Shown here in pieces: positions 20,583 through 37,054 of a stretch of 64,000 nt of DNA (position 1 is its first letter; each line of letters opens with the position of its first letter). The stretch is taken from IMG/VR virus record IMGVR_UViG_3300027126_000001. The stretch is one strand, 5' to 3'. The DNA comes from a virus. Lineage: Duplodnaviria; Heunggongvirae; Uroviricota; Caudoviricetes. The translations under genes and the position numbers were made by a program. A model generated the notes under the pieces. The model ran no database searches. It had not been told where the DNA came from and was given only the letters and a program-made list of their open reading frames with translations.

Positions 20583-20612
20583 AACCCGAGAGACCCGACT
20601 GTGATACCCGTT
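20583..20612. repeat. Three inverted-orientation copies of the iteron core (ACCCG, the reverse complement of CGGGT), including an exact GATACCCGTT
   Basis: aaACCCGag, agACCCGac and gatACCCGtt at 20584, 20593 and 20606, in the convergent gap between the KTSC gene and the array terminator. Confidence 0.45.
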
Positions 20613-20674
20613 AGGGAAACATACTAGCAGTTTTCTCTCAACTTGACATCACCGTGACGTCACCTTGACCATCC

Positions 20675-22129: not shown

Positions 22130-22137
22130 AACTCTTT

Positions 22138-22494: not shown

Positions 22495-22560
22495 AATGTT
22501 ATATGTTTTAATTATTGATACCTAAATATATGAACTTTAATTGTAACTAGCAACTTTATT
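22495..22560 (-). promoter_or_regulatory. Representative promoter/leader cassette: AGTTGCTAG, 16 nt, TATATTTAGGTATCAATAATTAAAACATATAAnATC, ATG
   Basis: Near-identical copies lie at 20967-21035, 21444-21519, 21715-21766, 22073-22137, 22750-22816, 23201-23264, 23538-23599, 23858-23940, 24776-24840, 25256-25326, 25585-25649, 25947-26033, 26211-26267, 26571-26646, 26869-26931, 27109-27180, 27514-27595, 27764-27822, 28030-28110, 28495-28561, 28838-28910 and 29473-29545. Degenerate copies lie at 18775-18820, 31484-31560, 32935-32991, 35057-35140, 36018-36074, 36450-36486, 37658-37720, 38889-38955, 53348-53387 and 55883-55899. TTG(C), a 19-nt spacer and TAnnTTTAG fit the Bacteroidetes sigma-A -33/-7 promoter geometry. 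Confidence 0.6.
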
Positions 22561-22749
22561 TTAAAAAGATCTTTCCCAATCTCTCTCTTTAACATCATCA
22601 ATAATGTCCGAAAGTACTTGTCCTAACTCTTCATCAAAGTCAACATCATCAATAGATGTTTTGTCTTCTTTGTATTGAGCAATTAATTCATCAATCTCTT
22701 CAATGAATCTTTCTTTAATCAACTTTAATTCTTTAAATGCTTTTGCCAT
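22561..22749 (-). CDS. Small acidic hypothetical protein (array gene)
   Basis: 62 aa, cassette upstream. Confidence 0.4.
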   Translation of the reverse strand: MAKAFKELKLIKERFIEEIDELIAQYKEDKTSIDDVDFDEELGQVLSDIIDDVKERDWERSF

Positions 22750-22816
22750 GATTTTATTTGTTTTAATTATTGATACCTAAATATATGAATTAACTTTATA
22801 ACTAGCAACTATTTTT

Positions 22817-23200
22817 TTAGTTATTTTTAGCAATGTTTCTAAGATTAGTATACCAGTTTATTTGATAATCATCAGCTGTACCGATTAATTGTTTTAACAT
22901 TTGATCTTCCATTCCTACCTTCTCTAGAATGAATTGCATAGTCTCTCCATCTACATCAATCTCTCTTAAAGTATCAATTACTAATTGTACCTTATCTGAA
23001 TGATCAAGATGTATATGATAAGATTTAAAGTAATTATTCTCCCAATTGATGATCATTTGCTTTTCATCCTCTGTAGTGATTGTAGTTTCATTCACATCAA
23101 AGACCTCTATGATATCTGCGAAGTCCAATTCAAATTCATTCTGTGTTCTGTTTGATGCCTCTCTAATAAAGAAGTTGACATCCATAAATTCTTTTGTCAT
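22817..23200 (-). CDS. Small hypothetical protein (array gene)
   Basis: 127 aa, cassette upstream. Confidence 0.45.
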   Translation of the reverse strand: MTKEFMDVNFFIREASNRTQNEFELDFADIIEVFDVNETTITTEDEKQMIINWENNYFKSYHIHLDHSDKVQLVIDTLREIDVDGETMQFILEKVGMEDQMLKQLIGTADDYQINWYTNLRNIAKNN

Positions 23201-23264
23201 AATATATTGTTTTAATTATTGATACCTAAATATATGAACTTTAATTGTAACTAGCAACTTTATT

Positions 23265-23537
23265 TTACTGAGCTTTTTTTATTTCTTTTAAAAATTCCTC
23301 TAACATATCTTCATCTGAATTATGATACCCTAACTGACTGAAGAAGTTAGTTTCTAATTTTGAAATCAAATCTGTGAAAGATTCTATTGAATCAATTTCA
23401 AATAACATTTCCCCAAGATTTGAATAATGATTTCTAAATTCTTCTTTCTCTAAAGGAAGATCATCTGCAAAGATGTTGTACATTTCAATTGCAGATTCTT
23501 TCAATACTTGTTTTGCTGTATATAATAAATTTGACAT
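23265..23537 (-). CDS. Small acidic hypothetical protein (array gene)
   Basis: 90 aa, cassette upstream. Confidence 0.45.
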   Translation of the reverse strand: MSNLLYTAKQVLKESAIEMYNIFADDLPLEKEEFRNHYSNLGEMLFEIDSIESFTDLISKLETNFFSQLGYHNSDEDMLEEFLKEIKKAQ

Positions 23538-23599
23538 AATATATTGTTTTAATTATTGATACCTAAATATATGAACTTTAATTCAATTGAGCAACTTTT

Positions 23600-23857
23600 T
23601 TAAACTAAACATTTAAAAGAAGTTTCAAAATAAACACTACTTTTTACAGCTTGTCTAACAGCATAGATAGCATCCAATAATTCTTCATACTCAAAGACAT
23701 ACATAGGAAGTTTTGTTTGCATATTGCTGATTGAGAAACTTGTCCTGTTGTGGTTAATTAGAGTGTAATCTAAAGTTTCTCCATTTGAGCGTACTTCAAG
23801 ATTTTTTTTATTACCCATGTAATCACTAACTCCGATAACTGCTACTAATTTTGACAT
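23600..23857 (-). CDS. Small hypothetical protein (array gene)
   Basis: 85 aa, cassette upstream. Confidence 0.45.
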   Translation of the reverse strand: MSKLVAVIGVSDYMGNKKNLEVRSNGETLDYTLINHNRTSFSISNMQTKLPMYVFEYEELLDAIYAVRQAVKSSVYFETSFKCLV

Positions 23858-23986
23858 AATATATACTGTTTTAATTATTGATACCTAAATATATGAAATA
23901 GTCTAGTAACTAGCAACTATTTCACAAACTATTTTAACCCAAAAAGGCCCCTAATAGGAGCCCTTTCTTCGATCAATAATTAAAAA

Positions 23987-24775
23987 CTATTCAGCTAAAG
24001 TGTGCTGAACAATATTTTCTCGTAGTCCATAAACTTGATCAATTATAGAACTAACGTTTATATTTTCTTCGCTTGATGTACTACTTCCATGAGCAAAAGT
24101 AAATACTGCAGTACCTTTCTTACCCGACTTAGAAACATCAATCAACTTAATACTAATTACAGTTGGAGTGTAGTTGTATTTCAATTGAATACCTTTTCCT
24201 TTGACAAACTCAACTCCACCATTCTTTAAATCGAATTCAATTTTTTCTCTTTCTATAACTCTAATTAACTCTTGAACTTCTCTAACCTCTCTTCCTACTT
24301 GTTCCATTTCTTTATACACTGCACTATATTCTTCTCTGAAAGAAATCACAGCTTCATTTGCAGCATCAATCATTTTATCTTGATCATTCAAAACAATCTC
24401 TGCTAAATCTCCTAACATTCTTAATCTTTTTAATTCGAAAGAGTCAACTCCTTTTGTAGAAGTAGTATAGTAAGATAAATCAATTCCACTATAACACTTG
24501 TTACTTTTCACTCCATCAAAATTCCAATTCTCTCTTAAATTTAAACTAAATAATTCTTTCTTGTAAGAATAATCTGGATGATCTGCTTTAAAGTAAACAG
24601 ACCCTCTAGTTACTTCAATGTAAGCATAAGGACTAAATCCTGAGAAGAAGGGAAGTAAAGCATCTGAAATTGCTTGTTGCTCTCTTACGTAAATGTCCCC
24701 TCTTTTGTTTTCTATTAATTCTTTTTGAGCTGTAAGGATTGCTTTTTGATCCTCTAATAAACTTAATCTTGTCAT
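23987..24775 (-). CDS. Hypothetical protein, largest gene of the array (262 aa)
   Basis: ORF with a cassette upstream and a GC hairpin downstream. Confidence 0.5.
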   Translation of the reverse strand: MTRLSLLEDQKAILTAQKELIENKRGDIYVREQQAISDALLPFFSGFSPYAYIEVTRGSVYFKADHPDYSYKKELFSLNLRENWNFDGVKSNKCYSGIDLSYYTTSTKGVDSFELKRLRMLGDLAEIVLNDQDKMIDAANEAVISFREEYSAVYKEMEQVGREVREVQELIRVIEREKIEFDLKNGGVEFVKGKGIQLKYNYTPTVISIKLIDVSKSGKKGTAVFTFAHGSSTSSEENINVSSIIDQVYGLRENIVQHTLAE

Positions 24776-24866
24776 AATGTTATATGTTTTAATTATTGAT
24801 ACCTAAATATATGAACTTTAACTTTATGAGGCAACTATTTTAACAATTATTTTTAATTTATTTTGA

Positions 24867-24942
24867 TGTTGTGGAAGGATTCGAACCTTCGTCCTATCGG
24901 CCCCCTCGGACCGATCGCTTTCGCCGCTTCAGCTTCACAACA
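24867..24942 (-). tRNA. tRNA-like element with a canonical acceptor stem and T-arm but a non-canonical anticodon arm
   Basis: Minus strand reads TGTTGTG-AA-GCTG...GAAGG-TTCGAAT-CCTTC-CACAACA-T. A 7-bp acceptor stem, a perfect GGTTCGAATCC T-arm and a D-loop GG are present. The anticodon arm ATCGGT/CCGAGGGG/GCCGAT gives an 8-nt loop, and no CCA is encoded. Downstream lies the hairpin AAGCCC-N8-GGGCTT. Confidence 0.4.
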
Positions 24943-24958
24943 GCTTTATAAGCCCTTT

Positions 24959-25255
24959 TTATAGGGCTTTTAATATTTCTCTCTCAGCATCATTTGAAAC
25001 TGATTTACTTTTTGATCCGATATGCCATGTTACATATTCATCCCTTTCTAACGGACGACCTTCCTTCCAGTCGTAAATACAAAATACTTCCCCTTCATTT
25101 GTTTCCATTTCCCATTCGAAATTCACTTTGTCCTCACCCGTATTATATTCCATGGTCGGCTCTCCGAATGCTGAAATTAATTGATCAACTGTTGCTCGAA
25201 TTACAACTCCGTGAAATGACGTCCCGCTTGTGCTTTGATAAGTTTCTTTTGCCAT
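24959..25255 (-). CDS. Small hypothetical protein (array gene)
   Basis: 98 aa, cassette upstream. Confidence 0.45.
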   Translation of the reverse strand: MAKETYQSTSGTSFHGVVIRATVDQLISAFGEPTMEYNTGEDKVNFEWEMETNEGEVFCIYDWKEGRPLERDEYVTWHIGSKSKSVSNDAEREILKAL

Positions 25256-25326
25256 GATTTTATATGTTTTAATTATTGATATCTAAAGATAAGAAAAAGG
25301 CCCCGAAGGGCCAACCCTTTTGTCAA

Positions 25327-25584
25327 TTATTTTTTAAAAGTTTTTCTATTGGCTGTAAATGAGATAACCTCGTTTAAGTTAACAAATCTGAAGTCTCTTT
25401 TCTGCATATCGTATACAGTTAATAAATTCTTTTCGGAAGGATTGAAAGAATGTCCAACTCCTTTAACTCCTTTTCGTACTCCTCTCATGGCATTCATTTT
25501 TCTAAGACTTCCATCTTTTTTAACAAAAGTTACAGAGAAGATTTTCTTGTTAGCAGTTTCTTGTAATAGATTTTCTACGATCAT
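25327..25584 (-). CDS. Small basic hypothetical protein (array gene)
   Basis: 85 aa, cassette upstream. Confidence 0.45.
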   Translation of the reverse strand: MIVENLLQETANKKIFSVTFVKKDGSLRKMNAMRGVRKGVKGVGHSFNPSEKNLLTVYDMQKRDFRFVNLNEVISFTANRKTFKK

Positions 25585-25649
25585 GATTTTATATGTTTTA
25601 ATTATTGATACCTAAATATAAGAAGAAGCCTCCTAAGAGGCAACTTTTT

Positions 25650-25946
25650 TTAGATATTTTTTATAACTAATTTCAAATAGATTGGACGAATCTTACCACA
25701 CTTTAATCTAGAAGCCCAGCCCTCTTCCTCCAAAGTAGACTGTATATCCTTCACAGATAAGCCTTCTCTATGGAGAGCTACAATTCTAACTTTCATAGAA
25801 TCCTCTTTTGATTTCTTCTCTACAGTAGCTCCTTTAATATGTTTTTCAACAAGTGCTTGAAGATCTTCAGTCTTCATCATATGAGCTGGTTTAGTAGTTT
25901 GAACATTTAAACTTTTTACTTGAGCAATTAATTCTGATCTTGTCAT
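25650..25946 (-). CDS. Small hypothetical protein (array gene)
   Basis: 98 aa, cassette upstream. Confidence 0.45.
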   Translation of the reverse strand: MTRSELIAQVKSLNVQTTKPAHMMKTEDLQALVEKHIKGATVEKKSKEDSMKVRIVALHREGLSVKDIQSTLEEEGWASRLKCGKIRPIYLKLVIKNI

Positions 25947-26033
25947 GATTTTATATGTTTTAATTATTGATACCTAAATATATGAACTTAACTAATACGA
26001 AACAACTTTTTTAACAATTATTTTTAATTAGAA

Positions 26034-26210
26034 GTAATCTTTTTTACTGTATAAGACATTCCGTAATAACTCTTCTCTCCAGGAGATAATGCTGCTCTTC
26101 TTCTTTTAGCATAGGCCTTAGCCTCTTCATGATTTTCAAATTCAGCAACTACTTTGCTAATTGTACCGATATACCCTCCCTTTTGAATAACCTGTGTCAT
26201 GATTTTATAT
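26034..26210 (-). CDS. Small hypothetical protein (58 aa), below the ORF-track cutoff
   Basis: ATG at 26210-26208. Translates to MTQVIQKGGYIGTISKVVAEFENHEEAKAYAKRRRAALSPGEKSYYGMSYTVKKITSN. A full cassette with a UUCG hairpin lies upstream (26211-26265). Confidence 0.4.
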
Positions 26211-26267
26211 GTTTTAATTATTGATATCTAAAGATAAGAAATAGCCCCCGAAGGGGCAACTATTTTA

Positions 26268-26570
26268 CTAGTTATTTTTCAAAAAGTTTTCTTTAACAGA
26301 AGTTGGAACATAATAACGATATAGATTTCTACTATCGTTTTTCTTTTTCCATAGAAATCTTTTATACAAACCTTTTTGAAGTCCACGTCTTAACATGTCG
26401 GCATATTTTTTATTCGATTCCCAAGTTTCATTTCTGTAATAGTCAAAAACTTGTTCCTGAATTTCAGATTCTGTTCGAAATGGTTTTTCGATTAAAAAGT
26501 TTACAATTTCATTTACTGAACGATAAGGTTGGTCAAAACCTTTACCTAATAACATACTTGAATAACCCAT
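26268..26570 (-). CDS. Small basic hypothetical protein (array gene)
   Basis: 100 aa, cassette upstream. Confidence 0.45.
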   Translation of the reverse strand: MGYSSMLLGKGFDQPYRSVNEIVNFLIEKPFRTESEIQEQVFDYYRNETWESNKKYADMLRRGLQKGLYKRFLWKKKNDSRNLYRYYVPTSVKENFLKNN

Positions 26571-26646
26571 AGTTTATATTGTTTTAATTATTGATACCTA
26601 AATATATGAACTATTCTTTAAACGAGCAACTTTTTATACAACTTTT

Positions 26647-26868
26647 TTAGTTAAAGTATTCTGTATACAAATCATTATTTAAACCCTCTTCTAAAAATTC
26701 AGTCAAACTCCAATCAAAATAATTTGAGATATCTGAACTTAAAGTTTCTTCTAATTCCTCTAAATTAATATCTTTTTTTAATTTTAGATCAAAACCCTTA
26801 CCTGCATCTTCAAGAGCATTAACTAAATCCTCTTTACTAATTTCAAATGTAATTTTTACTGTACTCAT
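26647..26868 (-). CDS. Small acidic hypothetical protein (array gene)
   Basis: 73 aa, cassette upstream. Confidence 0.4.
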   Translation of the reverse strand: MSTVKITFEISKEDLVNALEDAGKGFDLKLKKDINLEELEETLSSDISNYFDWSLTEFLEEGLNNDLYTEYFN

Positions 26869-26931
26869 TTTTATATGTTTTAATTATTAATACCTAAATA
26901 TATGAACTATTATTTTAGTAGGCAACTTTTT

Positions 26932-27108
26932 TTACAACTTTTTTAAAAAATAAAGTTGATAGTCACAAATTAGATTTATAACGTCATCTTCTTCTAACTC
27001 TCCAAATTCTTCTTCATAGTTAGATATGATATTTTCTAAGTAGTCAAAATCTTCAACTTCACTTCTAGTTAGCTTATGTGCATCTAACCATTTAAAAACT
27101 TGCTCTTT
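26932..27108 (-). CDS. Small acidic hypothetical protein (58 aa), not in the ORF track
   Basis: ATG 27108-27106. Translates to MKEQVFKWLDAHKLTRSEVEDFDYLENIISNYEEEFGELEEDDVINLICDYQLYFLKKL. A cassette lies upstream (27109-27180). Confidence 0.4.
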   Translation of the reverse strand, partial: KEQVFKWLDAHKLTRSEVEDFDYLENIISNYEEEFGELEEDDVINLICDYQLYFLKKL

Positions 27109-27318
27109 CATAACTTTTATTGTTTTAATTATTGATACCTAAATATATGAACTTAACTAATACGAAGCAACTTTTTTTACAACTAATTTAAAGAAAGATT
27201 TGCTTGGGCCATTCTAACAACTAATTCCTGAGGATTAAATGACATATAAGAAACTCCTCCTAGATTTACTTCGTAATAAGTAACTCCTAATAATACTACT
27301 TTTTTCATATACTTTTTA

Positions 27319-27513
27319 TTATAAGTTCTCTAAAAATTCTTCATTATCTTCATCATTTATCCATTCATCAAAATTTATTTCAAATTGATTGTAAGGATGT
27401 TGAGTAATTTCTCCTAAGTATTCTAAAAATACTTTTTTTGTTTGTTCTTCATTCCAACCACATTCTAAACATGTACGAATGATTCCTTCTGGGATGTTAA
27501 TTGTAACTTGCAT
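27319..27513 (-). CDS. Small acidic hypothetical protein (array gene)
   Basis: 64 aa, cassette upstream. A possible co-transcribed 41-aa ORF follows at 27187-27309. Confidence 0.4.
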   Translation of the reverse strand: MQVTINIPEGIIRTCLECGWNEEQTKKVFLEYLGEITQHPYNQFEINFDEWINDEDNEEFLENL

Positions 27514-27595
27514 AACTCTTATTGTTTTAATTATTGATACCTAAATATAGTTAAAAGAAAGGGAACTAGCAACTAATTCCCTAACTTTTCTTAAC

Positions 27596-27763
27596 TTATC
27601 TTACTTCCAATATATCTAACACAACATCCTCCCTCTCTAATTCCTCTAAAGCTTCTATCCCATCTTCTACAAACAATTCCTCTTTTAAGAAAGTATCAAC
27701 TTTCTCTATACTATCAAAAACTTCAGCAACTGCTCCATCTATACTTAAAATAAATACCTTCAT
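27596..27763 (-). CDS. Small acidic hypothetical protein (55 aa), not in the ORF track
   Basis: ATG 27763-27761. Translates to MKVFILSIDGAVAEVFDSIEKVDTFLKEELFVEDGIEALEELEREDVVLDILEVR. A cassette lies upstream (27764-27840). Confidence 0.4.
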   Translation of the reverse strand: MKVFILSIDGAVAEVFDSIEKVDTFLKEELFVEDGIEALEELEREDVVLDILEVR

Positions 27764-27822
27764 AATTTTATATTTTTTAATTATTAATACCTAAATATAA
27801 GAACTCTTTTTTAATCTAGCAA

Positions 27823-28029
27823 CTATTTTTTAATAAAATCACAACTTTTTTCTTCAAACCAAGCTTTATTCGTTTCATTGGTATAAGGAAAAGTAGTAAC
27901 ACTAAACCCATGAATAAGAGCAATTGGCTCAAATCCTTCGGCTAAATAACCTTGATAAACTTTACCATTTTGATCGGCTGAGGAAAGTTTAGACTCTCCC
28001 GTCTTTGCATTGTACAAAAATACTTTCAT
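27823..28029 (-). CDS. Small hypothetical protein (array gene)
   Basis: 68 aa, cassette upstream. Confidence 0.4.
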   Translation of the reverse strand: MKVFLYNAKTGESKLSSADQNGKVYQGYLAEGFEPIALIHGFSVTTFPYTNETNKAWFEEKSCDFIKK

Positions 28030-28110
28030 CTTTTATATTGTTTTAATTATTAATACCTAAATATAGGAAAAAGGATTGTAACTAACAACCCTTTCCCCAT
28101 TTATTTTTAA

Positions 28111-28494
28111 TTATTTTTCTAAACCATTTATAACAAAAACTTTATCTGCCCAAGTCTTAGCATTGACTGCCTTGTATTGATTGTGATCCATTAGATTTGT
28201 ATTGTAGAATAAAGAATTGATTGTTCCTACCTCTATAGTCTCAGCTATCCTCTCATCCAATAAGATAACCTTTGTGCCCTTCTTAGCAAATACTGTTGTC
28301 CAATGGCTAGTTCCTTCAGCTTTAAACTGGATAGTCTGAAGAGCTCCTTTCTTCCATCTATCAAGAGAAGGTATATCAGACCCTATTTCAGCTGCTATCA
28401 TAAAGCCTGCTGGTACTTTTGTAATGGCCTGGAAGATACCTTTTCTACCTCCGATGAAATCTACTACTGTTAATCCTTTAATTTTGTTTACCAT
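28111..28494 (-). CDS. Small hypothetical protein (array gene)
   Basis: 127 aa, cassette upstream. Confidence 0.45.
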   Translation of the reverse strand: MVNKIKGLTVVDFIGGRKGIFQAITKVPAGFMIAAEIGSDIPSLDRWKKGALQTIQFKAEGTSHWTTVFAKKGTKVILLDERIAETIEVGTINSLFYNTNLMDHNQYKAVNAKTWADKVFVINGLEK

Positions 28495-28561
28495 GATATA
28501 TGTCGTTTTAATTATTGATACCTAAAGATAATGAATTGGCCCCGAAGGGCCAACCCTTTTG

Positions 28562-28837
28562 TTAATTATTTAAGTAATTAGCTTTGTAATTTGTTACTAT
28601 TACCTCAAATTGAGCTAGACAATCTACAGCTGATTTACCTTTTAAGCCATAGTATTGTTTTAGATCTTTTAATTTAACCCCTCTACAGCTTAATCCTTTT
28701 GACATTAATTTAAGGTTAAAATGATGAACTGATAATTGATAACCAAAGTAATTAACATTACCATTAGGAGTTGATACTGTAGGAGTGTTTAAAGTTCCTT
28801 CCTGTGCTGCTGTAAGAGCTTGTTCAAATTGTGTCAT
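28562..28837 (-). CDS. Small hypothetical protein (array gene)
   Basis: 91 aa, cassette upstream. Confidence 0.45.
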   Translation of the reverse strand: MTQFEQALTAAQEGTLNTPTVSTPNGNVNYFGYQLSVHHFNLKLMSKGLSCRGVKLKDLKQYYGLKGKSAVDCLAQFEVIVTNYKANYLNN

Positions 28838-28970
28838 AATATACTATGTTTTAATTATTGATACCTAAAGATAGTAAATTATCTAATACGAGGCAACTTT
28901 TATTCCATATTATTTTCCTATTAAAACAAATACTGCCATAGATAAAATATATTAAAAAACTTTGTGAATT

Positions 28971-29010
28971 AGTTGCTAGATAGAATCATTCTTCGTATCT
29001 TTAGGTATGT
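28971..29010 (+). promoter_or_regulatory. Plus-strand copy of the cassette promoter (AGTTGCTAG, 16 nt, TATCTTTAGGTATG) with no ORF downstream
   Basis: The -33-like 9-mer is identical and the spacing to the -7-like TAnnTTTAGGTAT box is the same as in the ~25 minus-strand cassettes. It points rightward into a GC-rich non-coding stretch that ends at the 29117-29145 terminator. Confidence 0.5.
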
Positions 29011-29011
29011 T

Positions 29012-29156
29012 AGAAGGGAATAAAGGGCCTGGCACTGAAAGACTGTCGGAAGAGTAGACGGTCCGGTACGCCTATTTCTGTAGTTGGTAATACCTAGTAC
29101 CTGGTGGTAAAAAAAGAAGGGCCCTGTTGGGAGCCCTTTTTCTTATGCTTGTCTTT
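29012..29156 (+). ncRNA. Candidate ~140-nt small RNA (promoter-to-terminator unit on the otherwise empty plus strand)
   Basis: Bounded by the plus-strand cassette promoter and the hairpin AAGGGC-N10-GCCCTT followed by TTTTTC. GC content is far above the surroundings (GGGCCTGGCAC...GACGGTCCGGTACGCC). Only a 16-codon ORF is possible. Confidence 0.4.
29109..29145. terminator. Bidirectional rho-independent terminator
   Basis: An A-run (29110-29115), then a GC hairpin (29117-29138), then a T-run (29137-29141). Confidence 0.55.
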
Positions 29157-29262
29157 TCTGTCGTAGGTCTTTTTGCTCTTATACACCTTGTGCTGGGAGG
29201 CTGCCCATCTCTCCTGGAGAGTTACCTGAATTGTTTTCATTACTTGCTGAGGTTTGTTTCTA

Positions 29263-29472
29263 TTAAATATCCTCTTCTAGGAAGAAAGGGTCCCCTGAGG
29301 TATCAAATGTAATAAATCCTTCTCTATTAGTATAATAGTCATTAGGTCCAGTACTCATAAAGAATAGAGTTTCTTCCTCATCATTCCTCCCTACATAGTG
29401 AGCTTTATTTCCTCTCTTATCCAAAGTATATTCAACCCCTACAACTAAATCATCTCTTTCAATTTCTCTCAT
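29263..29472 (-). CDS. Small hypothetical protein (last array gene)
   Basis: 69 aa, cassette upstream (29473-29545). Confidence 0.45.
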   Translation of the reverse strand: MREIERDDLVVGVEYTLDKRGNKAHYVGRNDEEETLFFMSTGPNDYYTNREGFITFDTSGDPFFLEEDI

Positions 29473-29574
29473 ATCGTATATGTTTTTAATTATCTATACC
29501 TAAAGATAAGAACCATTGGCCATATAAGCAACTTTTTTATAGGCTTTTTTTACCCCCGGAGGGGGACAGGAAAC

Positions 29575-29730
29575 GGGTAACTAGAACGGGTCTCAACCGG
29601 GTCTCTTAACGGGTCACTAGACGGGTAACAAAACGGGTATCTAAATCGGGTATCTCCTTACACTCTGCATTATCTGCCTATAGGGACAGGTACCAAACGG
29701 GTATCTGAAATGGGTATCTGCTTACACTAT
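29575..29730. repeat. Iteron array A: ~9 direct copies of (A)ACGGGT(A/C), spaced 11-13 bp
   Basis: cgggt occurs at 29583, 29595, 29606, 29619, 29630, 29642, 29655, 29706 and 29720. Two copies of the longer unit GGGACAGGnAAACGGGTA and two copies of GGGTATCTSCTTACACT are also present. Confidence 0.7.
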
Positions 29731-30002
29731 ATAGGATAGTTTCTTCCTATTATAGAAAAAAACTATTAGGGAGACACATACCCCTCATTTTACCTATCCT
29801 TATTCTACCATCCCTTCTCTATCGTTTTACACATCGTATATACTATACAGTACCTTTTCATACCTACTACCATATGTCTTTATACTCTTTACTAGGTTTT
29901 ACTACTCTTTATGTTTAATCAGAGTCCTTAACCTTTTACTATGTATCTCAGCAGTTCTCCCTATGTCTCTCCTTATATCTCTCCAGCTCTATATGTATGT
30001 AT

Positions 30003-30095
30003 ATTCGGGTAATAGGCCGGGACAGAAACGGGTAATTGAATGGGTATCAAATGGGTATCGGACCGGGTTTGTAGACGGGTCTCTTAACGGGTTTC
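30003..30095. repeat. Iteron array B: ~8 direct copies of the same (A)ACGGGT motif, same orientation as array A
   Basis: cgggt/tgggt occurs at 30006, 30029, 30042, 30053, 30064, 30076 and 30088, and GGCCGGGACAGAAACGGGTA recurs. The two arrays are separated by a ~270-bp tract that is C/T-rich on the plus strand. Confidence 0.7.
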
Positions 30096-30151
30096 TATAT
30101 AATATTCTCTATAGGATTGTCCATTGTCCTTATAACGTCTTCTTTATTATC

Positions 30152-30427
30152 CTATATAGTATTCTTATCTATTATATTGCTGGAGATATTATTTCTTTCT
30201 ATAGTACTTACCCCCTCTACGGATACTCTCTTTATTCTTATTTGCCAAACTTCTTTTACTCTTATGTATCCATTCTCGTCTGGCTTACCTACATACTTTA
30301 GTAAGGCCATATGACTATTCTTTTTTACTAGAGTGAATGTCTTTGGATCATAGTAGTCTCTAAGGGTAATAATATAACCTATCCTTCTACATATTCTCCA
30401 ATATAGATTTCCTATTAGCTTTTTCAT
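30152..30427 (-). CDS. Small basic hypothetical protein
   Basis: 91 aa; its stop overlaps the next gene's start. Confidence 0.4.
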   Translation of the reverse strand: MKKLIGNLYWRICRRIGYIITLRDYYDPKTFTLVKKNSHMALLKYVGKPDENGYIRVKEVWQIRIKRVSVEGVSTIERNNISSNIIDKNTI

Positions 30428-31483: not shown

Positions 31484-31570
31484 AACCTTTATTATTTTTA
31501 ATTATACCTAAATATACGAAAAAAGAGCTGCGCTAGCAACTCTTTTATTAATTATTTTTAAAATATTTTA

Positions 31571-32407
31571 CTATTTTATATTCATCATGAAGTTACCTCC
31601 ACCACTTGTGATGTATTGAGGTACCTTAGATCCACCTCTTCTCCATGCTTCAATCCATTGTTGTTGCAATAGCATTGGTGTTAACGTTCTTTGTTTTAAA
31701 CTATTTGCTTCAGCTTCAGCTCTTGCTCTTGTAAGTGTTGATTGAGCATCTCCTTCTGCTTCTGCTACTTTGATCTTTGCTTCAGCTTCGGCTTGTTTAA
31801 CTCTATTCTCAGCCATTAAAGCTTTCTGTACTGCATTATTCTTAGCATTAATAGCATTCTTAAATGATTTTGGATATTCTAAATTAGTTGTAAATTGATC
31901 CAATACAAATCCTTCTGGTTCTAATTGTTTTCTTAGTGTAGCTTTTACCTTATTATCAAATGCCTCTCTACTTGAGATTAATTGATCTGCTGTATAACTA
32001 TTTGTAACAATTCTGAATGCTTCTGTTACCGCTGTCTTTAAGAATCCATTTTCAATACCATCTAAGTCTTTTCTATATTTGGCAAAGATTTGAGTTGCTT
32101 TATCAGGATTAATTCTATAGTTCACAATTGGGCTAACATGAAACTCTGATCCATCTTTACTATTTACTACAAATGATCCTTCGTCTGTATATTCTTTATG
32201 ACGAATATTGATTGGAAATTCATAAATTGTAGTTGTGATTGGATTATAAAACACTGTACCTGTACATTCTGTTACTCCACTCACCCCTCGTCCTGTACCA
32301 AACTTGTTTACTTTGATACCAATGTTACCTGAGTCAATATTTTCACATGACATTGTAACTGCAAAAATTGTTAGGATTAATCCTACTGCTACTAAAATTC
32401 TGTTCAT
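31571..32407 (-). CDS. SPFH / band-7 (stomatin-prohibitin-flotillin-HflK/C) family membrane protein
   Basis: 278 aa. N-terminal TM helix, then an SPFH core, then a C-terminal Ala/Glu-rich coiled coil (QAEAEAKIKVAEAEGDAQSTLTRARAEAEA) typical of HflK/YqiK-like proteins. Confidence 0.55.
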   Translation of the reverse strand: MNRILVAVGLILTIFAVTMSCENIDSGNIGIKVNKFGTGRGVSGVTECTGTVFYNPITTTIYEFPINIRHKEYTDEGSFVVNSKDGSEFHVSPIVNYRINPDKATQIFAKYRKDLDGIENGFLKTAVTEAFRIVTNSYTADQLISSREAFDNKVKATLRKQLEPEGFVLDQFTTNLEYPKSFKNAINAKNNAVQKALMAENRVKQAEAEAKIKVAEAEGDAQSTLTRARAEAEANSLKQRTLTPMLLQQQWIEAWRRGGSKVPQYITSGGGNFMMNIK

Positions 32408-32442
32408 AACTTGTTGTTTAAATTTGATTTATAATTAATTGT

Positions 32443-32934
32443 TTATTTTTCTAAAATTACTTTTGCGAATGTAGAATCTACTTTCATCTTCTCCATCAAC
32501 TCTTTAGCTGACATATTCTTAGCTTCGTCTAAGATCTTTTGTTTTTGATCTTTGATATTCAAATCTACTTTAGCTTCTGATGCCATGTTCTTTAACTCTG
32601 TTACTACAAAGTTGGATAACTCATGTGGAATTTGTTTAGCAGTTGAATCTGTTGTTAAGAAATTCATTGTTTGACCTCCTGCTACAATTAGTAATGCATC
32701 TTTCTTACTTGGAGTAAAGATAAATAAACTCCAGAATAAAAATGCAAATGGATAGGACCACCACATCCACTTTCTAGCTTGTACAGCTGAATCATCTTCA
32801 CCATTACCTCGGCAAATAAAATTAACTACTGTTGAAATAACTACTACAGCTGTAAAAATAAATAATCCTACTTTAAACATGTCCCTTGCATTGTCTGCAA
32901 CTGTTAACCAATAAAATAATTCTGTGTAATTCAT
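32443..32934 (-). CDS. Two-TM membrane protein
   Basis: 163 aa, with two hydrophobic helices in the N-terminal half. Confidence 0.4.
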   Translation of the reverse strand: MNYTELFYWLTVADNARDMFKVGLFIFTAVVVISTVVNFICRGNGEDDSAVQARKWMWWSYPFAFLFWSLFIFTPSKKDALLIVAGGQTMNFLTTDSTAKQIPHELSNFVVTELKNMASEAKVDLNIKDQKQKILDEAKNMSAKELMEKMKVDSTFAKVILEK

Positions 32935-32991
32935 AACTTATTTGTTTTTATTATTATACCTAAATATACGAATAATATTGTTAGGAGGCAA

Positions 32992-33342
32992 CTATTTTAG
33001 CCCTAATTTTTTTCTTTTCCAATTTTCTTTTGGACCTATTGCAAACATATCATCAATTCTTTTCTTATTTTTGCTCCATATAGGAATAACACCTACATAT
33101 TCTATATAGTAAGGAAATAACCAATGAATTCTCCAAGATTTTTCTATATTTTTCTTTAAGTATTTTGGTTGTATTCTATAACAATACTCTGATTGATATA
33201 CCTCGTACTCATCTGATATCTTATTTAGATATTCTTCTAAAAGATTGTCATTAAGTATACCTTTGTTTTCAAGAATGAAAAAACTTGACAATATAACTGT
33301 TAATATAACTGCTAGAATTGTTAAAATTAATAAAAATACCAT
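32992..33342 (-). CDS. Small membrane protein
   Basis: 116 aa, N-terminal TM. Confidence 0.4.
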   Translation of the reverse strand: MVFLLILTILAVILTVILSSFFILENKGILNDNLLEEYLNKISDEYEVYQSEYCYRIQPKYLKKNIEKSWRIHWLFPYYIEYVGVIPIWSKNKKRIDDMFAIGPKENWKRKKLGLK

Positions 33343-33344
33343 AA

Positions 33345-33566
33345 CTACTCCTGTTTTTCTTTATTAATTTCTTCCTCCGGCTTGAGTACTTTCAACAAAT
33401 ATAATCCTAAGAATGCAAACGCTACACCCACTATTGCAAGTACCACTATTCCTAAGTTGAATAAATAACTATCTGGTCTATTCATTAAGTATAGTCCTAA
33501 GTCCATTAATTGCACTAACCCAAAGGCTATTATCAATCCTGCTAAAATTTTAATAACTGTCTTCAT
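33345..33566 (-). CDS. Small two-TM membrane protein
   Basis: 73 aa. Confidence 0.4.
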   Translation of the reverse strand: MKTVIKILAGLIIAFGLVQLMDLGLYLMNRPDSYLFNLGIVVLAIVGVAFAFLGLYLLKVLKPEEEINKEKQE

Positions 33567-33773
33567 TAACTAAATAATTTATTTGTTGTTTACAATCTTC
33601 AATACTACTACCTGTACCGCTAGGTTCATCACAATTATTAGTATTATAAAATAAATACTTTACACTTTCAAGGTGCCCATAATTATAATCATTTATTAAG
33701 ATTTTATAACCTTTATAATCTACCATAACTTATTAATTTTAATACTTTAATACTACTCCTAATTTTTCCATAA

Positions 33774-33986
33774 TTACAATTCGTTTTCTTTTGTCCCTGA
33801 AAGTGCATCTACGTCTGCATACTTAGCATTTACTTGCTCAGCTAATACCTCTCTCAGCATTTTAATATTTTCTGATCCTACTTCCCGTAAAGCTCTCAAA
33901 GGTGATTTGTAGAGCTTAGGATGTATTTTTCCATTTTTCAGCACTACCTGAAAATAGTTTTTTGACTTCTCTGCTGCTTTTGTCAT
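33774..33986 (-). CDS. Small hypothetical protein
   Basis: 70 aa. Confidence 0.35.
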   Translation of the reverse strand: MTKAAEKSKNYFQVVLKNGKIHPKLYKSPLRALREVGSENIKMLREVLAEQVNAKYADVDALSGTKENEL

Positions 33987-33992
33987 TGTATT

Positions 33993-34232
33993 CTAGTCTA
34001 TGTATATTAATTTTCCTTGTTCATCTTCTATTTTTGTTACTTGCATTTTCTTATCTAAATTCTCTAGCATTACTCGTCCGTTCATTTGGAAGTACATATT
34101 GAAGGCTTGTTGGAATATTTCAAAGGGAGGTGTTACTCTACTGCTGTCTTTATTTTCTAAGAAGTATTGATAAAACCAAGCCAGATCATACTGGCCTGAT
34201 TTTCTCATCTGTATATACTTTTCCCTATCCAT
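33993..34232 (-). CDS. Small hypothetical protein
   Basis: 79 aa; ATGA overlap with the next gene. Confidence 0.4.
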   Translation of the reverse strand: MDREKYIQMRKSGQYDLAWFYQYFLENKDSSRVTPPFEIFQQAFNMYFQMNGRVMLENLDKKMQVTKIEDEQGKLIYID

Positions 34233-35056
34233 TAGTTAATGAATGCTGTTGCTAATTTAAAAAGCTTTTGATTAACTTCTAAATCTTTTTCGAATGACTT
34301 AATCTTTCTAACCTTTCTTACTTTAGCACCATTTAATGCTGCTGAATATCCTCCTTGAGTAATCTTCTCCTGGATTACATTAAATACTTTCCAAAGGTCA
34401 TTTCCTTTATCTTCCTCTCTTGTAGGAGTTAAAACGTCTTGAATAGTTTCTTCATCCCATACAGCATCGATTCTATTAGTTCTCAACTGCATTGCATCGA
34501 TAGCTAATTGTCTCTGCTCTACAGGGGTTAATTCTCTTAACTGCATTTTGTTAAGAATCTGTACCTTATTAGGAAGATCAGCTACTGCTTGAGATACTAC
34601 ACCTCTTAATTCTTCGAAGGTATACCCTTTGTGACGGATTTTGAATGCTGAGAATTCCTCATCAGCTACTACAAGTCCATTTGAGCATACTAATCTGTAG
34701 ATACCAACTCTAAATTGAAATGAATTAAATCCATCATGAGAGTTAGTTAAAATGATTCTCGGAAAAGCATCATCACCATTCTTACCTTTAATCATAAGAT
34801 CTGGATTCTGAAATGATACCATGTGCTTGGAGAAGATTGTAGTCTTATCAGACTTTCTAGCCTTTCTTTGAGAGGCTGTTACTGGTAACCATCCTAACTT
34901 TTCTAAGTCATCGATGATAGTTTCAGTATTAACATGTAAGTATTTATCACTTACTTTGTTGCTTGTCGGCTCTGTAGCAAATGCTACTGGTGCTAAAGCT
35001 TTTACTTGATCTTTTGAAAGGTAAGAATCTAAACCTGTGTTGAATTTTGATAACAT
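34232..35056 (-). CDS. DUF932-like protein (phage/plasmid-associated)
   Basis: 274 aa. ILTNSHDGFNSFQFRVGIYRLVCSNGLVV matches the NSHDGS...R.VC.NG signature of the DUF932 family. Confidence 0.4.
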   Translation of the reverse strand: MLSKFNTGLDSYLSKDQVKALAPVAFATEPTSNKVSDKYLHVNTETIIDDLEKLGWLPVTASQRKARKSDKTTIFSKHMVSFQNPDLMIKGKNGDDAFPRIILTNSHDGFNSFQFRVGIYRLVCSNGLVVADEEFSAFKIRHKGYTFEELRGVVSQAVADLPNKVQILNKMQLRELTPVEQRQLAIDAMQLRTNRIDAVWDEETIQDVLTPTREEDKGNDLWKVFNVIQEKITQGGYSAALNGAKVRKVRKIKSFEKDLEVNQKLFKLATAFIN

Positions 35057-35140
35057 AACTTATTGTTTTTAATTGATTTCTATACCTAAAGATATGAATA
35101 AAGATTTATACTAGCAACTAATCTACAAACTTTTTTTAAT

Positions 35141-35392
35141 TTAATCTACAAGACCTAACGTCTTGGCCCTATAGTAACTTACTTCTTTACCTGTTTTAGG
35201 ATTTAAGAACATTTGTTTTGTTTTAGGAAGATTGGCCTTAATCTTTTCCTTTTTAGCAAATTCTTCTAAATAACCTTTAGGGTATTCAAACTCTGCCTTC
35301 TCTATACCAGATGTAATACTATGTGTCCTATATGTATAAGTTGTAATAATTCCAGTATGCTCACAAGTAAAGATTGATACTAATTTTTTCAT
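35141..35392 (-). CDS. Small hypothetical protein
   Basis: 83 aa. Confidence 0.35.
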   Translation of the reverse strand: MKKLVSIFTCEHTGIITTYTYRTHSITSGIEKAEFEYPKGYLEEFAKKEKIKANLPKTKQMFLNPKTGKEVSYYRAKTLGLVD

Positions 35393-35691
35393 AAACTTTT
35401 ATCTTTTAGTTCCTTAATCAGCAGGAATGTATCAATAGCTTCATCTGACATCTCCCACTCTTCGTAATGCTTTAGGCAATTCTCTAGAGCTATTATCCAC
35501 TCTTTTGATGTAAGTGAGATTTCAAAAGATGTATCTATTCCCTCCATCTCTATTTCAAATAAGAGAGCTGTCTTCTTACCGCTCTTCATAGCTTCCTCAA
35601 TGCCCTCTCGAATATTGTCTGTCATATCGACTGACTTTTCTCTGAAGATTTGTTCTAACTCCTGTAGGTCTTCTATCTCTAATTTCCTCAT
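35389..35691 (-). CDS. Small acidic hypothetical protein
   Basis: 100 aa, coupled to its neighbours. Confidence 0.4.
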   Translation of the reverse strand: MRKLEIEDLQELEQIFREKSVDMTDNIREGIEEAMKSGKKTALLFEIEMEGIDTSFEISLTSKEWIIALENCLKHYEEWEMSDEAIDTFLLIKELKDKSL

Positions 35692-36017
35692 ATACGATTA
35701 CTATTTGATAATGATTTTTGATTGACTGGCATCTCTGGATTTGTTACGATTGTTTCTGTATCCATTCTGATTACTTCTACATTTGATTGTACAATATAGA
35801 CTGGACCATTATACTCGTATGTATGCATTGGTACATTGAACATACTATCTCCTAAGCCCGGCTGTTTGATAGGCTCAGTTATTCTTCTCTTTCCGTCAAA
35901 TGATCTGAATTCTCTAGCTGTAGTACGGTACCAATTACCTTTTATACAAACCTCACATACTCCTGAGGTATTAAAGTCGTATATTAATTTTGCGGTATTA
36001 CCTGTCTTCTCTGCCAT
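35688..36017 (-). CDS. Small hypothetical protein
   Basis: 109 aa. Confidence 0.4.
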   Translation of the reverse strand: MAEKTGNTAKLIYDFNTSGVCEVCIKGNWYRTTAREFRSFDGKRRITEPIKQPGLGDSMFNVPMHTYEYNGPVYIVQSNVEVIRMDTETIVTNPEMPVNQKSLSNSNRI

Positions 36018-36074
36018 AACCTTTATTTTTTTATTTAACTAAATATACGAATAAAATCTCTACCAGGCAACTTT

Positions 36075-36449
36075 TTATTGAAGAAGTTTAATTCTCGTAT
36101 ACCCGTCAATGTGTATTTGATTTTCACCTTCACCAGATGCTCCTTTAATAGGAATAAATAAATGCCCATGCTCTATTCTTAGTCTACGTACAATATTCTC
36201 AAACAAATACTTTTGTACATGTCTGTTATCTACAGGAAAATCGTATGCAAAAATATCATCATTACAATACCCTCTCATAGTCTCTATTGTAGGTACTTTA
36301 AAGATCAGTACTTTATTTTTAAAGAGCTTCTGAATATAATAGTCAATTGCTCTTGTGGTATTTCCGTACCTTCTAATACTTACATACCCTATCTCTTTAG
36401 CTCTTCTCTTAATGAAGTCTTCTACGTCTGCATTTATTAAATATTCCAT
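36075..36449 (-). CDS. Hypothetical protein
   Basis: 124 aa. Confidence 0.4.
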   Translation of the reverse strand: MEYLINADVEDFIKRRAKEIGYVSIRRYGNTTRAIDYYIQKLFKNKVLIFKVPTIETMRGYCNDDIFAYDFPVDNRHVQKYLFENIVRRLRIEHGHLFIPIKGASGEGENQIHIDGYTRIKLLQ

Positions 36450-36486
36450 AACCTTTATCTTCTTATTTATACCTAAATATATGAAC

Positions 36487-37035
36487 TTAATTTCTATTCT
36501 GCAACAGATTTAATAATTTATTTACATCACCTATCATTATTTTTTTGTGAAGCTCTCCTTGTATCTCTCTTGTGTAGTGGTATCCATCAGGATCAAGGGA
36601 CTCTACAGGCTTCCCTAAGATATCGCTAACCAGTGTGTTGGGTATTGGTACTCCACCTTTTTTAAGCATTATATGTTCCATTGCACCTGAGAATTCTCCC
36701 CAAGCTCTGTTCATCTTAACATCCTCTTGGCTCATCTTCATTAGTCCTTCCTTTCCTTGCATGCTTCCATCTGTTCCTGCTGCAATAGATTTTCTTCCTA
36801 GTTCATCCTTGTAGATCTTTATTGCTACAATTTTACCATCTCTTCTTACAAGTTTAGCCAATCCTGTCTTGTTAATTAAATCCTCTTTAGATTTTGCAGA
36901 TTTGAATCCTCCTATGGATGCATAGCTTTTCTGCAACATATCCCAGATCTCGTCAATGTATGGAACTAGTTGTTGGTCTGTGTGTAAGTTTATATATCTC
37001 TCAAACAATATGTTTGCAATAGTTAATTGTTTCAT
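36487..37035 (-). CDS. Hypothetical protein
   Basis: 182 aa. Confidence 0.4.
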   Translation of the reverse strand: MKQLTIANILFERYINLHTDQQLVPYIDEIWDMLQKSYASIGGFKSAKSKEDLINKTGLAKLVRRDGKIVAIKIYKDELGRKSIAAGTDGSMQGKEGLMKMSQEDVKMNRAWGEFSGAMEHIMLKKGGVPIPNTLVSDILGKPVESLDPDGYHYTREIQGELHKKIMIGDVNKLLNLLQNRN

Positions 37036-37054
37036 GTAGTTTTTATTATAAATA

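What the first reader, a model, noticed from the sequence alone, without database searches (positions are those of the whole stretch)
29560..30110. Two co-oriented iteron arrays (~17 x AACGGGTA at 11-13-bp spacing) flanking a 270-bp polypyrimidine tract: candidate replication origin or master operator
The 950-bp gene-free region between the early array and the downstream genes contains (A)ACGGGT(A/C) roughly every helical turn: 9 copies in 29577-29728 and 8 in 30003-30095. The extended unit GGGACAG(G/A)AAACGGGTA recurs three times and GGGTATCTSCTTACACT twice. The intervening 29750-30000 is strongly C/T-biased on one strand, which would suit a DNA-unwinding element. Helically phased direct repeats bracketing an asymmetric easily melted tract is the classic iteron-origin layout. 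The same core occurs inverted three times at 20583-20612 (including an exact GATACCCGTT) in the convergent gap after the KTSC gene, which suggests a dedicated DNA-binding protein with at least two loci.
Basis: seen in the sequence. Interest (0 to 1): 0.7.

Follow-up and report, generated by a model that had tools for sequence, protein, structure and literature searches.

The report
Bipartite iteron arrays, probable phage origin
A family of T4-like Flavobacterium phages keeps one unique non-coding element, two arrays of a 12-bp repeat around a conserved 273-bp core, which is most likely a protein-coated DNA site such as the replication origin, though nothing here proves that function.

Summary
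In the 679-bp gap between minus-strand genes (29473-30151), RAA-CGGGT-HWC units recur every 11-13 bp. There are 9 copies in 29574-29715 and 7-8 in 30006-30092, all in one orientation. Thirteen of the 14 plus-strand CGGGT in 64 kb lie here (Poisson P about 1e-26).

The window is related to Flavobacterium phage immuto (160 kb, T4-like, all genes co-directional). In immuto the arrays occur at this one locus only. About 20 related contigs keep the same order: GC hairpin, array A (9 to over 15 copies), an invariant A7 box, a core (273 nt in 5 of 6 aligned relatives), then array B (3-8 copies). The flanking genes vary.

The core is not a melting element: its GC equals the window mean and it is only 66% pyrimidine. 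It has no conserved ORF, no RNA covariation and no Rfam match.

Best reading (confidence about 0.4): an iteron-type nucleoprotein site, probably the replication origin. No initiator gene was found. Rivals are a packaging or concatemer-junction signal (T7-like anatomy, but the terminase is T4-type), a split centromere-like or regulatory array at the head of the early-gene block, and an unstructured RNA.

The parts
29501..29531 (-). First promoter of the dense early-gene array (TTGC-N20-TTCTTATCTTTA, followed by GGTAT), 21 nt downstream of the GC hairpin
   Evidence: One of 28 near-identical Bacteroidetes-type promoters between 29531 and 20996. Its -33 and -7 blocks are conserved in all relatives.
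29553..29565 (.). GC hairpin CCCCC-GGA-GGGGG. It is preceded by T7 on the + strand and followed by A7 on the gene strand, so it is not an intrinsic terminator on either strand.
   Evidence: Present in all relatives as C4-6 / mostly GNA triloop / G4-6. It lies in the most stable 25-mer of the 64-kb window. It folds as a 5-bp stem.
29563..29728 (+). Array A: 9 RAA-CGGGT-HWC units at 11-13 bp, starting with the extended unit GGGACAGGAAACGGGTA and interrupted by a 64-nt internal duplication (29628-29664 / 29692-29728)
   Evidence: Homologous arrays of 9 to over 15 copies occur in relatives.
29748..29768 (.). A7 box TATTATAGAAAAAAACTATTA (86% A+T, ATAG/CTAT dyad), at a conserved position next to array A
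   Evidence: The exact 21-mer or 19-mer retrieved the related contigs. Divergent relatives L121 and L239 have TATATAGAAAAAAAAGTAATA instead.
29735..30007 (.). Conserved non-coding core, 273 nt: 66% pyrimidine on the + strand (purine-rich on the gene strand), average GC
   Evidence: 273 nt in 5 of 6 aligned relatives and 231 nt in L008. Mean pairwise identity is 81% against 60% for the arrays. No conserved ORF. No RNA covariation. Fold z-scores are -1.76 and -0.49. No Rfam match.
29768..29785 (-). Weak terminator-like hairpin followed by the T7 run of the A7 box, on the gene strand
   Evidence: The stem is not conserved in relatives, so its function is doubtful.
30006..30097 (+). Array B: 7 CGGGT/TGGGT units plus the extended unit CCGGGACAGAAACGGGTA, in the same orientation as array A
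   Evidence: Relatives carry 3-8 copies.
20583..20612 (-). Secondary locus: three copies of the same core in the opposite orientation. It lies between the terminator of the last dense-early gene and the first late-type promoter.
   Evidence: Two copies are conserved at the homologous place in immuto.
20643..20674 (.). Neighbouring conserved 11-nt repeats with a palindrome, TTGACATCACCGTGACGTCACCTTGACC (possible site for a second protein)
   Evidence: Nearly invariant between the window and immuto.

Best explanation
The element is a cis-acting DNA site that becomes coated by many copies of one sequence-specific DNA-binding protein, probably phage-encoded and not yet identified. It most likely serves as the phage's iteron-type origin of replication.

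Proposed mechanism (all steps inferred):
1. The protein nucleates at the extended GGGACAG-RAAACGGGT unit that starts each array.
2. It polymerises head-to-tail along the roughly 12-bp units. At 11.9 bp per unit the filament spirals around the duplex about once every 7-8 sites.
3. The two co-oriented arrays hold the length-constrained core between them.
4. The complex opens the A+T-rich A7 box next to array A, and the phage DnaB-type helicase and DnaG-type primase are loaded there.
5. Where no terminator intervenes, early transcripts reading into the purine-rich core could add an R-loop primer.

Shown here: the repeat anatomy, its uniqueness in the genome, and its conservation pattern. Inferred: protein binding, melting and origin activity.
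For: - The arrays are far beyond chance and strictly co-oriented.
- In the complete related genome (immuto, 160 kb) clusters of the motif occur only at this locus.
- Across about 20 related contigs the core motif, orientation and 11-13-bp spacing are kept (274 units: spacing 11 x58, 12 x109, 13 x34). Spacer sequences, copy number (array A 9 to over 15; array B 3-8) and both flanking genes change. This is the signature of a protein-binding array, not of coding sequence or RNA structure.
- The core is as conserved as the best coding segments and has no ORF, no covariation and no Rfam match. It is 273 nt in 5 of 6 aligned relatives, and the one deletion is 42 bp, about 4 helical turns.
- An invariant 21-bp, 86% A+T box lies next to array A.
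- The phage family encodes its own DnaB helicase, DnaG primase, family-A DNA polymerase and SSB, so it needs a loading site.
- From my own knowledge: repeat-rich non-coding regions in phage genomes have often proved to be origins.
- The terminase is T4-type, which weakens the packaging alternative.
Against: - No initiator-like, helicase-loader or other DNA-binding family was detected in 40 proteins around the element and next to the replication genes.
- The one conserved neighbour that was modelled is a small beta-barrel of moderate confidence with no significant structural match.
- The element is not next to the replication genes.
- There is no GC-skew inflection, though co-directional transcription would mask one.
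- The core has average GC content, so no clear DUE exists beyond the 21-bp box.
- The spacing is 12 bp rather than 10.5-11 bp.
- Two relatives have an intrinsic terminator that blocks upstream transcription before the core, which weakens the R-loop step.
- There are no functional data of any kind.
Confidence: 0.4

Rival explanations
1. Packaging or genome-terminus signal. Either the core is a short terminal repeat flanked by short-repeat arrays, as at the T7 concatemer junction, or the two arrays are small-terminase binding sites flanking a pac cleavage region, as I recall for P1 and SPP1 pac.
For: - T7, read here: a 160-bp terminal repeat is followed by CCTAAAG units at 12-13-bp spacing, with a looser array before the right-hand repeat. 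This is the same anatomy as arrays flanking a unique segment.
- As in T7, every gene of the related genome is on one strand, and a dense block of small early genes starts right after the element.
- DUF932, an early gene 4-5 kb upstream here, lies inside an annotated 'redundant repeat' of jumbo phage CBB.
- The element is far from the terminase genes. From my own knowledge that suits phages with fixed terminal repeats better than pac phages.
Against: - The large terminase is closest to T4-like cyanophage gp17 (31-34% identity, E-values 2e-59 to 9e-70). From my own knowledge that clade packages by headful without fixed ends.
- Early promoters lie on both sides of the element.
- No CGGGT copy lies inside the core, unlike T7, whose repeat unit also occurs inside the terminal repeat.
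- The related metagenome contigs that break in the element stop at different positions, not at one terminus.
- The element is 53 kb from terL, which is atypical for pac sites.
Confidence: 0.17
2. Transcriptional control or insulation at the head of the early-gene block. A repressor or roadblock protein coats the arrays to regulate the adjacent first early promoter or to stop read-through. Together with the inverted copies at the far end of the block, it may bracket the whole 7-9-kb early module.
For: - Array A ends about 45 nt upstream of the -33 element of promoter 29531-29501, and this arrangement is kept in all relatives.
- The only other motif cluster sits exactly at the other end of the dense early array, in inverted orientation, and is conserved in immuto.
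- All genes are co-directional, so insulation from upstream transcription units would be useful. In immuto the gene upstream of the element has a late-type promoter.
Against: - Seventeen to thirty sites plus a 273-bp conserved core is far more than one promoter needs.
- The other 27 early promoters have no such sites.
- A plain terminator does the insulating job in immuto.
- No regulator was identified.
Confidence: 0.17
3. Centromere-like or genome-organising site. This would be a split array of direct repeats that a small centromere-binding protein wraps into rings or filaments (as at tubC, and as I recall for R1 parC), used to position or condense phage DNA.
For: Type III centromeres are direct repeats split into blocks. 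In prophage c-st the split site spans more than 350 bp, contains iterons of different affinity and forms a double ring (PMC6009700). The two blocks, the roughly 12-bp unit and the extended nucleation-like unit here match that anatomy.
Against: - No TubR/TubZ, ParM/ParR or ParA/ParB family was detected in the neighbours or annotated in the related genome.
- The phage lacks an integrase and plasmid-maintenance genes and looks strictly lytic.
- One exact core-box pattern, scanned across genomes of 185,579 species, matched only one MAG contig.
Confidence: 0.08
4. The region is transcribed, and the purine-rich, repeat-bearing RNA is the functional product, for example as a protein sponge or an unstructured regulatory RNA.
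For: - In the window no terminator separates the upstream early operon from the element.
- The gene-strand sequence is purine-rich, with many GGAG-like motifs and 16+ ACCCG repeats.
Against: - No promoter of the early or late class lies inside the element.
- There is no Rfam match, no covariation and only weak folding z-scores.
- Terminators cut off upstream transcription in two relatives, at different places.
- The hairpin at the 3' side is followed by A7, not U.
Confidence: 0.08

Closest known systems
Iteron-type theta origins of plasmids and phages (lambda ori, P1 oriR/incA, F, R6K gamma, pSC101; named from my own knowledge)
   Same: Tandem, co-oriented direct repeats of one motif at near-helical spacing. 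An adjacent A+T-rich box. A second set of the same repeats at a distance, as with P1 incA or F incC. A unique position in the genome.
   Different: The repeats are 12 bp rather than 17-22 bp, and there are many more copies (16-30). The two arrays flank a 273-bp conserved non-coding core instead of a rep gene. No Rep gene is recognisable nearby. There is no clear DUE or DnaA boxes. Activity is untested.
T7 concatemer junction (terminal repeat flanked by arrays of CCTAAAG-like short repeats)
   Same: Arrays of a 6-7-bp core repeated every 12-13 bp, co-oriented, on both sides of a unique 160-270-bp segment. A fully co-directional genome with early genes immediately downstream.
   Different: The terminase here is T4-type, not T7-type. 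Early promoters lie on both sides. There are no repeat copies inside the core. Physical ends are unknown. There is no sequence similarity.
tubC split centromere of type III partition systems (pBtoxis, pBM400, prophage c-st) and R1 parC
   Same: Direct repeats split into two blocks that a small protein coats cooperatively. Iterons of high and low affinity. Location just upstream of a promoter (PMC6009700).
   Different: No TubR/TubZ or ParR/ParM genes. A lytic phage. The spacer between the blocks is much longer and sequence-conserved.
T4 oriE '12-nt iterons'
   Same: [quoted passage not shown] The origin is said to depend on an early promoter (PMC3016281).
   Different: T4 oriE lies inside the gene 5 coding sequence, and no link between its repeats and origin activity has been established. 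Here the repeats are non-coding and bipartite.

Membership tests
Iteron-type replication origin | Tandem direct repeats of one motif, co-oriented, at roughly helical spacing | tested here: met
   16-17 units at 11-13 bp in the window. Across relatives, 274 units with modal spacing 12.
Iteron-type replication origin | Adjacent A+T-rich DNA-unwinding element | tested here: inconclusive
   An invariant 21-bp box of 86% A+T adjoins array A. The 273-bp core has average GC content and average duplex stability.
Iteron-type replication origin | Cognate initiator (Rep) gene, usually adjacent | tested here: not met
   No Rep, initiator or helicase-loader family in 40 proteins scanned against Pfam, 20 of them also against PHROGs. 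Many ORFans remain, so absence is not proven.
Iteron-type replication origin | Replication starts here (copy-number peak, autonomous or phage-dependent replication) | not testable with these tools
   GC skew shows no inflection, but all genes are co-directional, which would mask one.
T7-type concatemer junction / short terminal repeat | Unique segment flanked on both sides by arrays of a short repeat | tested here: met
   T7 ends compared directly with the window.
T7-type concatemer junction / short terminal repeat | Terminase of a clade that makes fixed ends | tested here: not met
   TerL of the related complete genome is closest to T4-like cyanophage gp17 (31-34% identity).
T7-type concatemer junction / short terminal repeat | Physical genome ends map to the element | not testable with these tools
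   The GenBank records were opened at a gene start. The related metagenome contigs that break in the element stop at varied positions.
pac site (P1 / SPP1 type) | Located in or next to the small/large terminase genes | tested here: not met
   In immuto, terL is at 119.0-120.6 kb and the element at 66.3-66.9 kb.
Type II/III plasmid centromere (parC / tubC) | Blocks of direct repeats forming a discontinuous site | tested here: met
   Two blocks, with first cores 432 bp apart (29574 to 30006). Precedent in PMC6009700.
Type II/III plasmid centromere (parC / tubC) | Immediately upstream of the centromere-binding protein gene and its motor (TubR/TubZ, ParR/ParM) | tested here: not met
   The downstream gene is hypervariable and the neighbours have no such domains. 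None is annotated in immuto.
Structured non-coding RNA | Conserved secondary structure with compensatory changes, or a match to a known family | tested here: not met
   RNAalifold covariation term +0.88, with 1 compensatory pair of 56. Fold z-scores -1.76 and -0.49. No Rfam match at E<=1.
T4 oriE-type repeats | 12-nt repeats embedded in the gene 5 coding sequence, antisense to the primer RNA | tested here: not met
   T4 oriE is annotated inside gene 5. Here the repeats are intergenic, with non-triplet indels between relatives.

The most novel reading that the evidence does not exclude
The arrays are not an origin in the usual sense. They would be one end of a protein-bounded chromosomal domain. 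About 17-30 co-oriented sites sit upstream of the 7-9-kb block of about 28 strongly promoted early genes, and 2-3 inverted sites sit exactly at its downstream end. One polar DNA-binding protein could then form a loop, or a fork or transcription barrier, that isolates the host-takeover module in a genome where every gene points the same way.
Probability: 0.1. Interest if true: 0.7.

Novelty: new variant of a known kind. Interest (0 to 1): 0.45.

Why it matters
To my knowledge, replication origins and other cis-acting sites of phages infecting Bacteroidota are essentially unmapped. This element is unique in its genome, sharply defined and conserved across a widespread freshwater and brackish phage lineage. 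One member of that lineage, immuto, is cultured on Flavobacterium sp. LMO8, so the element is directly testable. If it is the origin, it would be an unusual bipartite iteron origin with no recognisable Rep protein, and it would point to a new initiator family among the ORFans. If it is not, it is a large protein-binding array of unknown purpose next to the host-takeover genes.

Tried and rejected
- DNA-unwinding or polypyrimidine reading of the core. Rejected: GC 33.7% against a window mean of 33.8%, only the 85th percentile for instability, and strong sequence and length conservation.
- Structured ncRNA. Rejected by RNAalifold, single-sequence folds and Rfam at both thresholds.
- Hidden small ORF in the core. 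The candidate start codons are not conserved, as read from the sequences.
- Promoters inside the element. I derived the early consensus (TTGC-N20-TAnnTTTAGGTAT) and the late consensus (cTATTTATAa). Neither occurs in the element.
- GC hairpin as a terminator. Rejected: the T run precedes it on the + strand and an A run follows it on the gene strand.
- Binder search. Pfam and PHROGs on the neighbours and Pfam on proteins near the replication genes gave only Band_7, DUF932 and UPF0227. The 40-aa HTH is not conserved. The conserved 64-aa neighbour has 7 homologues, a pLDDT-67 beta-barrel model and no significant PDB match.
- Searching viral contigs for the bare repeat pattern returned mostly unrelated repeats that looked protein-coding, plus one new relative, L121.
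- The search for related loci with the 69-aa downstream protein found nothing. That gene is hypervariable.
- Contig ends as evidence of physical termini. Locus ends in IMG/VR are storage chunks. The related metagenome contigs that break in the element stop at varied positions.
- T4 oriE as a close analogue. Its repeats lie inside gene 5.
- No paper on immuto itself is in the library.

Full report
**What is there.** All genes around the finding lie on the minus strand. The finding sits in the 679-bp gap between ORF 30152-30427 and ORF 29263-29472. On the plus strand, CGGGT/TGGGT cores start at 29574, 29587, 29598, 29610, 29622, 29634, 29647, 29698 and 29711 (array A). In array B they start at 30006, 30029, 30041, 30052, 30064, 30076 and 30088, plus a degenerate CCGGGA unit near 30018. 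Spacings are 11-13 bp, and none lies on the opposite strand. Thirteen of the 14 plus-strand CGGGT in 64 kb fall in this 551-bp span, where 0.06 are expected (Poisson 2e-26). Tandem Repeats Finder independently reports a period-12 array.

Three details are overstated:
- The gap is 679 bp, not 950.
- The period is about 12 bp, not one helical turn.
- The central tract is 66% pyrimidine (window mean 57.4%, top 0.4% of windows) with exactly average GC, 33.7% against 33.8%.

**Whose genome.** The region matches Flavobacterium phage vB_FspM_immuto (Immutovirus, 160 kb) at about 74% nucleotide identity. I read the whole immuto record. Nearly all of its roughly 240 genes are on one strand. It encodes T4-like portal and capsid proteins, a DnaB helicase, a DnaG primase, a family-A DNA polymerase, SSB and a 7-deazaguanine DNA-modification set. 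Its large terminase is closest to T4-like cyanophage gp17, at 31-34% identity. In the complete genome, clusters of the motif occur only at the homologous locus (66317-66411 and 66770-66889). GC skew is positive throughout with no inflection.

**Conservation.** A 21-mer from the centre (TATTATAGAAAAAAACTATTA) retrieved 10 IMG/VR stretches besides immuto. A 19-mer retrieved 11 related metagenome contigs. Further relatives came from a repeat-pattern scan (L121), from the first core scan (L002/L172) and from a protein look-up (L239). All share one order:
- an early promoter;
- a GC hairpin (C4-6, mostly a GNA triloop, G4-6);
- array A, with 9 to over 15 copies;
- the A7 box;
- a conserved core;
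- array B, with 3-8 copies.

Over 274 units the logo is R-A-A-C-G-G-G-T-H-W-C-T-A, with spacing 11 (58 cases), 12 (109) and 13 (34). The core motif, orientation and spacing are constant. Spacer sequences and copy number vary, and single-base indels exclude coding.

The core is 273 nt in five of six aligned relatives and 231 nt in one. That 42-bp deletion equals four helical turns. Mean pairwise identity is 81% for the core and 60% for the arrays. Both immediately flanking genes differ between contigs. Only a 64-aa, a 32-aa acidic and a 48-aa basic protein are constant neighbours.

**What the core is not.**
- It has no conserved ORF; the candidate start codons are lost in relatives.
- It shows no conserved RNA structure. 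The RNAalifold covariation term is +0.88, with one compensatory pair of 56. Single-sequence z-scores are -1.76 and -0.49.
- It has no Rfam match, even at E<=1.
- It is not easy to melt.

The constraint therefore acts on primary sequence and length, as expected for a DNA-level nucleoprotein site.

**Transcriptional setting.** I derived the early promoter consensus (TTGC-N20-TTCaTATATTTAGGTATCAATAATTAAAACA). There are 28 copies from 29531 down to 20996, one per small gene, and seven more between 31539 and 38945. I also derived a late-type consensus, cTATTTATAa, from the immuto structural genes. Neither occurs inside the element. The first promoter of the dense block lies 21 nt beyond the hairpin.

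The hairpin has a T run before it on the plus strand and an A run after it on the gene strand, so it is not a terminator. It lies in the most stable 25-mer of the window.

Upstream transcription is cut off by an intrinsic terminator before array B in immuto. In L239 a terminator lies between array B and the core. In the window there is no clear terminator.

The secondary locus (3 inverted copies; 2 in immuto) lies exactly between the terminator of the last dense-early gene and the first late-type promoter. It sits beside a conserved TTGACATCACCGTGACGTCACC repeat.

**Search for the binder.** Pfam was run on 40 proteins around the element and near the immuto replication genes, and PHROGs on the 20 in the window. 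They gave only Band_7, DUF932 and UPF0227. The conserved 64-aa neighbour has seven homologues. Its model is a small beta-barrel (pLDDT 67) with no PDB match better than E = 0.1.

**Interpretation.** A unique, bipartite, co-oriented array whose motif and spacing are fixed while everything around it drifts is best explained as the binding site of one sequence-specific protein. Among functions known for such arrays in phage genomes, an iteron-type origin is the most common. It also fits a phage that brings its own helicase and primase and has an invariant A+T box beside the array. I put this at about 0.4. No initiator was found, there is no clear DUE, the unit is 12 bp, and nothing functional is known.

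The T7 concatemer junction is a real anatomical analogue. I read the T7 ends and found a 160-bp terminal repeat followed by CCTAAAG every 12-13 bp, with a looser array on the other side. The genome layout is also T7-like. However, the T4-type terminase, the early promoters on both sides and the absence of motif copies in the core argue against fixed ends here (about 0.17 together with a pac site).

A regulatory or insulating role at the head of the early block, perhaps together with the inverted copies at its far end, is about 0.17. A tubC/parC-like split centromere matches the anatomy (PMC6009700) but lacks partner genes (about 0.08). A functional unstructured RNA is about 0.08. T4 oriE, the textbook '12-nt iteron' case in T4, lies inside gene 5, and its repeats have never been tied to origin activity.

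**Verdict.** The origin interpretation is plausible but only partly supported, and its DUE argument is wrong. The element is a new variant of a known kind, an iteron-like protein-binding array. It is of moderate interest and testable in a cultured phage-host pair.

Noticed in passing
window 20996-29531 (minus strand), plus 31509-38945: About 28 near-identical early promoters (TTGC-N20-TTCaTATATTTAGGTATCAATAATTAAAACA), one per tiny gene. In several, the terminator hairpin of the preceding gene sits inside the promoter spacer (for example TTGCCCCTTCGGGGGC...). Seven more copies lie upstream of the element.
   Followed up: partly
immuto MW353175 whole record (L014-L017); the window is collinear with its 43.7-101 kb: Nearly all of the roughly 240 genes of this 160-kb T4-like myovirus are on one strand. 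GC skew is positive across almost the whole genome, with no inflection.
   Followed up: partly
window 24865-24942 (minus strand): ARAGORN calls a tRNA-like gene with a four-base anticodon (gagg), 'tRNA-???', inside the early-gene block. It could be a frameshift-suppressor-like tRNA or a degenerate tRNA.
   Followed up: no
window 20643-20674: 11-nt tandem repeats with a GTGACGTCAC palindrome (TTGACATCACCGTGACGTCACCTTGACC). They are nearly invariant between the window and immuto, just after the terminator of the last dense-early gene. This may be a binding site for another regulator at the early/late boundary.
   Followed up: partly
window 20257-20523 (plus strand): The only plus-strand ORF in this neighbourhood (88 aa). 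It has no counterpart at the homologous place in immuto, so it looks like an insertion next to the secondary motif locus.
   Followed up: partly
window 29263-29472 and homologous positions in L001-L080: The first gene after the element's promoter is hypervariable (59-91 aa, unrelated between contigs), while the second gene (48-aa very basic protein, 29094-29240) is always conserved.
   Followed up: partly
immuto 18.6-37 kb (L014): A full 7-deazaguanine DNA-modification gene set (DpdA, QueC, QueD, QueE, QueF, FolE). The G-rich CGGGT sites may therefore carry modified guanines in vivo, which would matter for any binding assay.
   Followed up: no
window 653-1127: 42/84/126-nt tandem repeats (3-10 copies, 63-74% matches), matching repeats at immuto about 100.1-100.6 kb inside a tail-spike gene.
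   Followed up: no
window 31571-32407, 34232-35056, 37055-37657: Early-promoter-driven genes for an SPFH/Band_7 protein, a DUF932 protein and a UPF0227 alpha/beta-hydrolase. The DUF932 homologue in jumbo phage CBB lies in an annotated 'redundant repeat'.
   Followed up: partly
L239 (JGI contig Ga0633749_0000046, 266,723 bp), locus 4450-5850: A divergent relative on a much longer contig keeps the element, but with only 3 array-B copies. A terminator between array B and the core is built from an inverted pair of the motif itself (ACCCGTC...GACGGGT followed by T7).
   Followed up: partly
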